Source: Chlamydiota bacterium | Lineage (GTDB): Bacteria; Chlamydiota; Chlamydiia; Chlamydiales; SM23-39 | Direction: 5' to 3' | Assembly: GCA_048498835.1 (NCBI GenBank) | Contig: JBEHXF010000020.1 | Span: forward strand, 1-32,950 | Length of the DNA stretch: 32,950 nucleotides | Part shown: positions 18,071 through 18,430 of the stretch, piece after piece | Position numbering within the stretch: the first letter of the stretch is position 1 | How the letters are laid out: each line of letters starts with the position of its first letter | Made by a program: the position numbers and the translations under genes | Notes under the pieces: generated by a model | Told to the model about the DNA's origin: nothing | Databases searched by the model: none | The model's input: the letters and a program-made list of their open reading frames with translations, nothing else

Positions 18071-18430
18071 AACGCAGTGAGTGATGAGGGAGCGACCCAA
18101 CAGTTTGGGTCGCGTTAGGTTTCGAAGTGAAGCGCCTCTGGCGCGAACCGGCCCTCACGACGAGGCGAAAGCCTCGCATGAGGGGAATCCTACCTCTTCC
18201 GAAATTTTTCTTCCGAAAAAATTTCGGAAGAAGCAAGCAACTAAATGTGGCTTGCGGGTAGGATTCGAGTCCGAAGCTTTGCTTCGGACCGCCGGCCCGG
18301 CAGGACGAATCGCAAAGCGATTCGCCGCGAGGGCATCCCGCGCGCACGAAGTAGCGCGCTTGGGAAAGGGGGATGTGGGGGAAAGGGCGTAGCGCCTTTC
18401 CCCCGCTCTTCCCGGCAACGAATCCTACCT
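18071..18430 (+). repeat. Two tandem structured tRNA-linked units, each ending in a direct repeat of the tRNA 3' end
   Basis: GAATCCTACCTCTTCCGAA at 18054..18072 = 18185..18203, and CGAATCCTACCT again at 18419..18430. Split antisense tRNA copies lie at 18086..18126 (degenerate) and 18223..18268. Confidence 0.85.

What the first reader, a model, noticed from the sequence alone, without database searches (positions are those of the whole stretch)
18071..18430. tRNA-linked element carrying an antisense copy of its own cognate tRNA 3' end, split by a 25-nt hairpin
SEEN: three units share one architecture. After Ser(TGA), unit 2 reads TTCGGAAGA (18223..18231) + 25-nt hairpin AGCAAGC..GCTTGCG + GGTAGGATTCGA (18257..18268). 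Without the hairpin this is the exact reverse complement of 18052..18072 (tRNA 3' end plus 2 nt). Unit 1 has the 25-nt hairpin AGCGACCCAA-CAGT-TTGGGTCGCGT + TAGGTTTCGAA, with a degenerate acceptor half. After Ser(CGA), the unit reads CGGAAAGA + 25-nt AGCGACCCGC-CAAT-GCGGGTCGCGT + GTGGGATT, matching that tRNA's different 3' end (CCCAC-TCTTTCCG rather than CCTAC-CTCTTCCG). The antisense part therefore co-varies with the adjacent tRNA, while hairpin length and position stay fixed. The hairpin lies at or within 1 nt of the T-stem/acceptor boundary, and its stem shows compensatory changes. Both Ser(TGA) units end in a direct repeat of the tRNA 3' end that starts in the T loop. INFERENCE: a non-autonomous, tRNA-targeting mobile element whose target-complementary segment is re-specified per target, either guide-like or made by fold-back synthesis during insertion. 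Alternatively it is a cis-antisense trailer controlling pre-tRNA folding or processing. I do not recognise it as a described family.
Basis: partly seen in the sequence, partly recalled or inferred. Interest (0 to 1): 0.85.

Follow-up and report, generated by a model that had tools for sequence, protein, structure and literature searches.

The report
Hairpin-split tRNA-linked repeat family
Behind this serine tRNA gene sit two copies of a small gene-less element that carries a mirror copy of its own tRNA's tail around a fixed hairpin; it is a new variant of the tRNA-linked repeats long known but unexplained in E. coli, and it looks like a mobile DNA whose targeting sequence is rewritten at each new tRNA gene.

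Summary
In this genome 8 of 8 copies next to a tRNA or tmRNA gene match their own gene best among 34 targets. The same 25-nt hairpin occurs in records labelled Chlamydiae, Patescibacteria, Elusimicrobia and Proteobacteria. In a hairpin-only search 90 of 120 copies follow a tRNA or tmRNA gene. The Ser(TGA) site is empty in 4 of 5 same-genus genomes. Bodies differing at 4 of 85 bases carry different, locally matched arms, so the arms are rewritten. The closing repeat starts near C56|R57, at the foot of the last hairpin, and the loops are DNA-type GNA triloops. The skeleton is not new: E. coli tRNA-linked repeats (TLR, RtT) also carry target-matched antisense arms, and an RtT-like unit fills this same site in a relative. 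This scan has reported the TLR-like layout before on other DNA. The fixed hairpin at the T-stem/acceptor junction is what is new. Best reading: a non-autonomous single-stranded-DNA element whose arms act as a DNA guide. No enzyme partner was found and no RNA data were available.

The parts
17986..18070 (+). tRNA-Ser(TGA), the target gene; positions 57-73 (18054-18070) are the first copy of the 3'-end repeat
   Evidence: ARAGORN, Rfam, repeats
18071..18090 (+). Unit 1 linker (AACGCAGTGAG type, a linker type seen at 15 elements with different targets) and degenerate acceptor-side antisense arm
18091..18115 (+). Unit 1 conserved 25-nt hairpin (A + 9-bp stem + 4-nt loop + GT)
18116..18126 (+). Unit 1 antisense arm to T stem and T loop (tRNA positions 64 to 54, one mismatch)
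18127..18184 (+). Unit 1 body: hairpin A (18132-18144), conserved GAACCGG spacer, terminal hairpin B (18152-18184) whose 3' foot abuts the repeat
   Evidence: folds
18185..18203 (+). Perfect direct repeat of the tRNA 3' end from R57; closes unit 1 and serves as the sense arm of unit 2
18204..18231 (+). Unit 2 self-complementary linker and acceptor-side antisense arm (18223-18231)
18232..18257 (+).
18257..18268 (+). Unit 2 antisense arm to T stem and T loop
18269..18419 (+). Unit 2 body (second subfamily), including an extra hairpin module at about 18334-18409 that also occurs without the element on contig C70
18420..18438 (+). Eroded closing repeat of the tRNA 3' end (perfect for 11 nt)
30417..30503 (-). 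tRNA-Ser(CGA), second target in the window
30143..30413 (-). Third unit: arm 30413-30406, hairpin 30405-30381, arm 30380-30373, body 86% identical to unit 2 over 118 nt; no closing repeat seen

Best explanation
A non-coding, non-autonomous mobile element of the tRNA-linked-repeat (TLR) class that works as folded single-stranded DNA on the tRNA-sense strand. One unit is: tRNA 3' end (R57 to 73), self-complementary linker, antisense arm, 25-nt hairpin, antisense arm ending in GAA, hairpin body. SHOWN: this anatomy, its spread, filled and empty sites, tandem units, arms matched to the local gene, and the boundary near C56|R57 at the foot of the last hairpin. INFERRED: (1) the arms pair with the tRNA gene's 3' end and act as a DNA guide; their last bases (GAA) pair only with the TTC of an intact T loop, not with the element's own end; (2) the extruded 25-nt hairpin is the binding site of a trans-acting single-strand cut-and-join enzyme of the HUH (IS200/IS605, RAYT) or Ssn GIY-YIG kind, 8-9 base pairs from the exchange point; (3) strand exchange after C56 leaves the old gene end as the closing repeat; (4) at a new tRNA the arms are rewritten by fold-back synthesis templated on the local gene, keeping linker, hairpin and body.
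For: Arms match the local gene: 8 of 8 in G000; the variable T-loop base 59 is complemented in 206 of 221 elements. Retargeting: 14 pairs of elements differ at 10 or fewer of 85 body bases but at 5 or more target bases, the closest at 4 of 85; 37 of 47 chlamydial copies have their nearest body at a different target. Polymorphism: the pheS-Ser(TGA) site is empty in G001, G002, G003, G005, filled by this family in G004, G007, G020 and by an RtT-like unit in G008, G035; the strict pattern occurs in 18 of 401 genomes of the order, in two families. Boundary: the closing repeat first matches at position 56 or 57 in 37 of 57 elements; in 100 folded elements position 55 pairs inside the body in 73 and position 57 with the arm in 63. 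DNA signature: GNA triloops are 56 of 231 on the sense strand against 14 on the other strand and 8.7 +/- 3.4 in shuffles; UUCG is 1 of 217 tetraloops; bodies have 27 GNYA against 14 GNRA. GCGNAGC and GCGNNAGC are described as extraordinarily stable DNA mini-hairpins (PMC13037366, listing abstract). 72 of 221 linkers look like intrinsic terminators ahead of the arms. Where tRNA and closing repeat differ, the arm follows the tRNA 173 times, the repeat 12 times and neither 20 times. Hairpin: 7 of 9 pairs change on both sides in 23 distinct sequences. Precedent for base-paired target choice, extendable to 12-17 nt by engineering: IS608 (PMC5934647, abstract).
Against: No partner enzyme found. G000 has only a UvrC-length GIY-YIG, no Y1 transposase, no reverse transcriptase and no IS110; Y1 was found in 1 of 5 element-rich chlamydial genomes. 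No unit enclosed a gene: 99 of 102 measurable closing repeats lie 49-246 nt away. No match in viral contigs, phages or plasmids. G:T versus A:C mismatches show little strand bias (33 vs 26; 66 vs 46). Across genomes the local target was strictly best in only 87 of 138 elements, tied in 22 and beaten in 29. Insertion of a unit with the wrong 3' end would break the tRNA, so step 4 needs a rewriting route that I cannot show. Two G000 copies (C39, C70) match no tRNA. E. coli TLRs are transcribed and processed (PMC8144298, passages). Sequences are related, and were partly chosen by hairpin-shaped patterns, so counts are not independent.
Confidence: 0.45

Rival explanations
1. RNA-level element: a co-transcribed trailer or small RNA like RtT or RrA/B/F. 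It is cut out at the repeated tRNA end, and its arms pair with the pre-tRNA to affect folding, processing or turnover.
For: In the hairpin-only search 90 of 120 copies lie on the same strand downstream of a tRNA or tmRNA gene. The region folds strongly as RNA (z = -10.4). Three E. coli rRNA-operon TLRs are transcribed, processed and bind Hfq and CsrA (PMC8144298, passages). A promoter-like site lies upstream of the tRNA.
Against: 72 of 221 linkers are terminator-like and would stop transcription before the arms. Body loops are DNA-type while linker loops are GNRA-rich (22 of 69). Patchy presence and tandem copies at one tRNA fit mobility better than regulation.
Confidence: 0.22
2. A folded single-stranded attachment site, in the manner of integron attC or IMEX attP, recombined into the T loop by a tyrosine recombinase; the 25-nt hairpin is an extruded strand-selectivity mark.
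For: Intact gene plus displaced 3' fragment is the standard tyrosine-integrase signature, and T loop and T/acceptor junction are known crossover subsites (PMC4383910, passages). Tyrosine recombinases are the only candidate class present in 5 of 5 element-rich genomes.
Against: Those matches include the two housekeeping XerC/D-sized proteins, so presence says little. One recombinase would have to accept 162 different target ends. No integrase family recurred beside 172 element loci.
Confidence: 0.15
3. No dedicated enzyme: a palindromic repeat that spreads by host recombination and slippage between short repeats, with arms perfected by template switching at the quasi-palindrome centred on the linker.
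For: Linker and arms form one long imperfect palindrome with the tRNA end. Tandem identical units are common. No partner gene was found. Template switching at quasi-palindromes is established (recalled, no call).
Against: Template switching should delete the extruded hairpin, yet it keeps 25 nt in 135 of 138 elements and lies 4 or 5 nt from the T loop in 214 of 221. A fixed boundary at the foot of a hairpin is not expected.
Confidence: 0.13
4. A tRNA mimic RNA: the arms pair with the closing repeat to rebuild an acceptor stem and T stem, with the 25-nt hairpin in the place of a variable arm.
For: Predicted folds pair the T-side arm with the closing repeat. Ser, Leu and Tyr are frequent targets (with Ser inflated by my queries).
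Against: Arms do not co-vary with the closing repeat (12 against 173). A closing repeat was found for only 138 of 221 elements. Arg, Gly, Pro and tmRNA are also common targets.
Confidence: 0.05

Closest known systems
E. coli tRNA-linked repeats (TLRs), including the tyrT/tyrV repeats = RtT (Rfam RF00391). Source: PMC8144298, passages; Rudd 1999 not seen
   Same: Directly behind tRNA genes, same strand, 100-200 nt, tandem copies, closing 18-19 bp repeat of the local 3' end, no known function. Tested here: 9 of 10 E. coli units examined have a 10-nt antisense arm; it matches their own tRNA family best in 8 and ties in 1. The GAGAA motif after the tyr arm also follows the arm in a subset of this family. 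An RtT-like unit (37.3 bits, E 8.5e-6) fills the same pheS-Ser(TGA) site in G008.
   Different: E. coli arms cover only about positions 59-68 and have no 25-nt hairpin at the T-stem/acceptor junction. Here the arms reach from 73 to 54. The bodies do not match RF00391 in G000, G004 or G020. tmRNA is a frequent target here.
IS200/IS605 elements and their gene-less relatives (REP/BIME with RAYT). Sources: PMC5934647 abstract; the rest recalled
   Same: Single-stranded hairpin ends, target chosen by base pairing with element DNA, insertion 3' of a short target word (here TTC; inferred).
   Different: Natural guides are 4 nt and fixed; here 17-20 nt and different at each target. A target-end repeat is present here. 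No Y1 gene lies beside the element.
Ssn GIY-YIG single-strand nucleases and their hairpin repeats (NTS/SRM). Source: PMC11893778, passages
   Same: A short hairpin bound by a small enzyme that cuts single-stranded DNA a fixed distance 5' of it, strand-specifically. Small GIY-YIG genes lie beside 2 element loci (L198, L338).
   Different: That paper does not contain the word tRNA. The two GIY-YIG genes sit outside the unit with their own different hairpins. No small GIY-YIG was found in G000, G004 or G017.
tRNA/tmRNA-targeting genomic islands (tyrosine integrases). Source: PMC4383910, passages
   Same: Restored gene plus displaced 3' fragment, T-loop crossover, tandem arrays.
   Different: Islands are 2 kb or more with an integrase of fixed specificity. 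These units are about 130-250 nt, gene-less, and carry an antisense copy of the target.

Membership tests
TLR class (E. coli definition) | Lies directly downstream of a tRNA or rRNA gene | tested here: met
TLR class (E. coli definition) | 3' end of 18-19 bp identical to the upstream gene's 3' end | tested here: met
   Unit 1: 19 of 19; unit 2: 14 of 19; found in 138 of 221 elements; not seen for the Ser(CGA) unit
TLR class (E. coli definition) | Co-transcribed and processed to a small RNA (shown for RrA/B/F) | not testable with these tools
   No RNA holder listed
RtT (Rfam RF00391) | Covariance-model score of 45 bits or more | tested here: not met
   No match at E <= 1 in G000, G004, G020; control hits in E. 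coli
Any other Rfam family | Gathering score reached | tested here: not met
   Only tRNA and tmRNA reach it in the window and in 20 other loci; the sX4 hit is mostly the tRNA and is below threshold
IS200/IS605 or REP-RAYT | Y1 HUH transposase encoded in or beside copies | tested here: not met
   None in G000; 1 of 5 chlamydial and 3 of 5 other genomes have Y1 matches; 0 of 5 of the latter loci hold the hairpin
IS200/IS605 or REP-RAYT | Strand-specific single-stranded hairpin ends | tested here: inconclusive
   GNA triloops are strand-biased, 56 against 14; mismatch bias is weak
IS200/IS605 or REP-RAYT | Cleavage 3' of a conserved target word with a phosphotyrosine intermediate | not testable with these tools
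   The boundary after TTC is inferred from sequence
Ssn-associated repeats | Hairpin flanks a small GIY-YIG gene | tested here: not met
   A GIY-YIG motif was seen at 1 of 172 oriented loci and 1 of 122 metagenome loci, outside the unit in both; motif scan only
tRNA-targeting genomic island | Integrase gene between the gene and its displaced fragment | tested here: not met
   99 of 102 closing repeats lie within 49-246 nt

The most novel reading that the evidence does not exclude
A natural, self-retargeting DNA-guided mobile element. A 17-20-nt single-stranded DNA guide, split by a protein-binding hairpin, directs insertion after the TTC of tRNA and tmRNA T loops and is rewritten from each new target. 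E. coli TLRs would be eroded members of the same superfamily, and an unidentified enzyme that reads the 25-nt hairpin would be a programmable DNA-guided integrase.
Probability: 0.3. Interest if true: 0.87.

Novelty: new variant of a known kind. Interest (0 to 1): 0.58.

Why it matters
TLRs have been known in E. coli since 1978 without a function (PMC8144298). This variant gives testable handles: a hairpin conserved across several phyla that can serve as bait for its protein, a mapped boundary at C56|R57, and pairs of nearly identical elements with different target arms. If the arms are DNA guides, the system is a natural long-guide version of what had to be engineered into IS608. The units also add spare tRNA 3' ends, which can mislead island finders and may offer landing sites to other elements.

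Tried and rejected
Autonomous copy: ORFs of 60 aa or more around 172 oriented element loci clustered only into ordinary neighbours and spurious frames over the element. GIY-YIG, Y1 (31, 100, 102), reverse transcriptase (86), IS110 (87) and tyrosine recombinase (32) searches gave no partner. Three of the four small chlamydial GIY-YIG genes were examined and none is near a tRNA. The L198 GIY-YIG found no relative in viral contigs. Viral contigs, phages and plasmids gave no match. Expression: no RNA holder listed; the best DNA runs held under 0.1 of the words, so none was laid. Arms as copies of the tRNA's own 5' strand: at T-stem wobble or mismatch positions the arm is the complement of the 3' strand 21 times, equal to the 5' strand 12 times and neither 7 times, and the T loop is copied as antisense, so rejected as the general rule. 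Retroviral-type primer-binding site: the arms continue into genomic linker rather than CCA, rejected. Clustering of bodies by genome: mean identities are 0.66-0.70 in all three large classes, no signal. TRIP1 repeats are unrelated to tRNAs (PMC10888264, passages). Weinberg 2017 motifs (PMC5737381, passages): none of this layout in the passages seen. Literature searches that found no description of the antisense arm or the hairpin. Rudd 1999, Egan and Landy 1978, Williams 2002 and the supplements of PMC8144298 were not seen and may already note the arm.

Full report
1. Observation. The window is contig C20 of a 1.97-Mb draft genome, G000. I infer a chlamydial host because named Chlamydiae records carry the same body subtypes. 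tRNA-Ser(TGA) lies at 17986-18070 behind pheS. The tRNA end from R57 recurs at 18185 (19 of 19) and 18420 (14 of 19). The Ser(CGA) unit is as described, with a 1-nt gap opposite the T loop.

2. The genome. ARAGORN finds 34 tRNA genes. A strict hairpin scan gave 16 hits, 10 of the element type; one search added one on C70. Eight copies lie directly behind a gene end: Ser(TGA) twice, Ser(CGA), Ser(GCT), Leu(CAA), Leu(TAG), Lys(TTT) and a tmRNA on C29 that ARAGORN missed and that I recognised from its end. All 8 rank their own gene first among 34 targets (33 parsed tRNA ends plus the tmRNA). The C46 copy ranks Leu(CAA) and lies on the contig that continues the Leu(CAA) array, displaced by about 1.3 kb of small genes. 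Two copies match no tRNA: C39, nested in another element with its own sense and antisense arms, and C70. Contig C18 begins with units that close on a Tyr 3' end.

3. Relatives. Among 29 loci from the relatives search (28 centred on Ser(TGA), two of them cut at the gene end), the site is empty in four same-genus genomes (G001, G002, G003, G005). It is filled by this family in G004, G007 and G020, eroded in G014, and filled by a different, hairpin-less type in G008 and G035. pheS marks the same site in 22 of the 29. The strict pattern occurs in 18 of 401 genomes of the order, in two families only, with 0 hits for the backwards control. Of 116 matches re-found, 87 lie within 400 nt behind a same-strand tRNA or tmRNA (part of that output was cut). 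That pattern contained T-loop antisense, so I ran a hairpin-only pattern on metagenomes: 90 of 120 distinct copies follow a same-strand tRNA or tmRNA within 450 nt, 9 had too little upstream DNA, and 21 had no call, several of them with tmRNA-like or displaced ends by eye. One 0.7-Mb genome holds 10 copies, 9 behind a called tRNA, each with its own arms.

4. Anatomy, from 221 elements with an upstream T arm and 162 distinct targets. The hairpin sits 4 nt (127) or 5 nt (87) from the T loop. T-loop base 59 is complemented in 206 of 221. Opposite positions 57-58 most elements are complementary, but 15 read GA, giving the GAGAA motif. The arm ends in GAA in 190. The hairpin is 25 nt in 135 of 138 elements (an earlier subset); 7 of its 9 pairs change on both sides in 23 distinct sequences that I picked (chosen through hairpin-shaped patterns, so biased). 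The closing repeat first matches at position 56 or 57 in 37 of 57 cases. In 100 folded elements the partner changes from body to arm between positions 55 and 57, so the repeat begins at the foot of the last hairpin. Of 102 measurable closing repeats among 218 elements, 99 lie 49-246 nt away; the 823-nt case has a nearer eroded repeat and the 2228-nt case was mis-anchored. Against my reading, across genomes the local target scored strictly best in 87 of 138, tied in 22 and lost in 29, against 107 targets that include near-identical isoacceptors.

5. The arms are rewritten. Fourteen pairs of elements differ at 10 or fewer of 85 hairpin-plus-body bases while their targets differ at 5 or more of 16; L191 and L320 differ at 4 of 85 and each has arms fitted to its own target. 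Of 47 chlamydial copies, 37 have their nearest body at a different target. One linker type recurs at 15 elements with different targets, so linkers travel with the element. Where the closing repeat has drifted from the tRNA (138 elements), the arm follows the tRNA 173 times, the repeat 12 times and neither 20 times. This fits a repeat that decays as a displaced gene end and disfavours a tRNA mimic.

6. DNA or RNA. In 186 non-redundant elements GNA triloops are 56 of 231 on the sense strand, 14 on the other, and 8.7 +/- 3.4 in 30 shuffles. UUCG is 1 of 217 tetraloops. Bodies have 27 GNYA and 14 GNRA loops, linkers 2 and 22. GCGNAGC and GCGNNAGC are described as extraordinarily stable DNA mini-hairpins (PMC13037366 and PMC3201870, listing abstracts). 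72 of 221 linkers resemble intrinsic terminators (my own simple rule). The mismatch bias towards G:T is weak (33 against 26). No RNA run could be tested.

7. Link to known repeats. E. coli tyrT/tyrV repeats read: antisense arm, GAGAA, hairpin body, repeat from A58. Of 10 TLR-bearing genes examined, 9 have a 10-nt arm; it fits their own tRNA family best in 8 and ties in 1. The RtT model hits the unit at the pheS-Ser(TGA) site of G008 (37.3 bits, cut-off 45) and nothing in G000, G004 or G020. TLRs are described as 22 repeats with an 18-19 bp 3'-end repeat and no known function; three are transcribed and bind Hfq and CsrA (PMC8144298, passages). The arm is not mentioned in the passages I saw. So the finding belongs to the TLR class by layout, is not an RtT member by model, and differs by the junction hairpin and by arms that span positions 73 to 54. 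Earlier notes of this scan describe the TLR-like layout in Patescibacteria, actinobacteria, gammaproteobacteria and archaea; one gave me the TLR lead, which I then tested. None looked alike by sequence.

8. Mechanism. I favour a single-stranded-DNA element whose arms are a cis DNA guide (0.45). The GAA at the arm end can pair with the TTC of an intact T loop but not with the element's own end, as in IS608 target recognition, which can be extended to 12-17 nt by engineering (PMC5934647, abstract). The hairpin would hold the enzyme 8-9 base pairs from the exchange point, much as SsnA cuts 5' of its hairpin (PMC11893778, passages). The enzyme is not found. G000 has only a UvrC-length GIY-YIG, no Y1, no reverse transcriptase and no IS110. 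GIY-YIG genes lie beside two loci but outside the unit and with other hairpins; in one such genome several small GIY-YIG genes sit in duplications of tRNA 5' parts, a separate element. How arms are rewritten without breaking the tRNA is the weakest step; fold-back synthesis from the self-complementary linker is my inference. Rivals: RNA trailer or small RNA (0.22), tyrosine recombinase acting on a folded site (0.15), host template switching alone (0.13), tRNA mimic (0.05).

9. Verdict. Real, widespread, absent from Rfam, and not described in the papers my searches reached, but a new variant of a known, unexplained kind rather than a new kind. Rudd 1999 and the supplements of PMC8144298 were not seen. 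Interest 0.58.

Noticed in passing
window 17594-17985: A second, unrelated REP-like palindromic repeat family between pheS and the tRNA, with matches on dozens of G000 contigs.
   Followed up: no
window 18334-18409; G000 C70 5483-5559; window 30143-30200: An extra hairpin module sits where the closing repeat should begin in many units and also occurs alone on C70; it may be a second element that targets the same boundary.
   Followed up: partly
window 18435-19379: Two small ORFs (142 and 124 aa) with duplicated upstream regions (36 of 39 identical) and starts (36 of 40); these and the next two ORFs have no Pfam match.
   Followed up: partly
G000 C39 18888; L033 1276; L126 1759: Copies nested inside other copies at TTC|A-like words, one on the opposite strand, carrying their own sense and antisense arms that match no local tRNA.
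   Followed up: partly
L198 2150-2432; L253; L266; L267: Small GIY-YIG genes in a Patescibacteria genome lie between a hairpin-interrupted 5' fragment of a tRNA and the intact tRNA; two others (L254, L259) appear to interrupt rRNA genes.
   Followed up: partly
G000 C46; L093; L096; L350: Small cargo genes between a tmRNA or Leu(CAA) element and a displaced gene end, each closed by the same short motif (AAAAGTTCTGAA), which suggests another gene-carrying element.
   Followed up: no
L008 1334-1474; L028; G008 C3 33380-33515: RtT-like repeats below the Rfam cut-off in chlamydial relatives, far outside enterobacteria.
   Followed up: partly
G000 C15 after tRNA-Thr(CGT) 28999-29073: Two tandem duplications of the 3' half of the tRNA with a short spacer, without the hairpin.
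   Followed up: no
G000 C21 after tRNA-Met 8890; C30 after tRNA-Trp 16072; C5 after tRNA-Arg(TCT): Apparent remnants: a partial antisense arm or half of the hairpin.
   Followed up: no
G000 C3 21967-23253: A tyrosine integrase (423-aa frame) directly behind tRNA-Asn, an ordinary island candidate.
   Followed up: no
Rfam RF02223 (sX4), window 17974-18127: The sX4 model consensus contains a whole tRNA-Ser-like sequence followed by hairpins, so that family may itself be a tRNA plus trailer.
   Followed up: no
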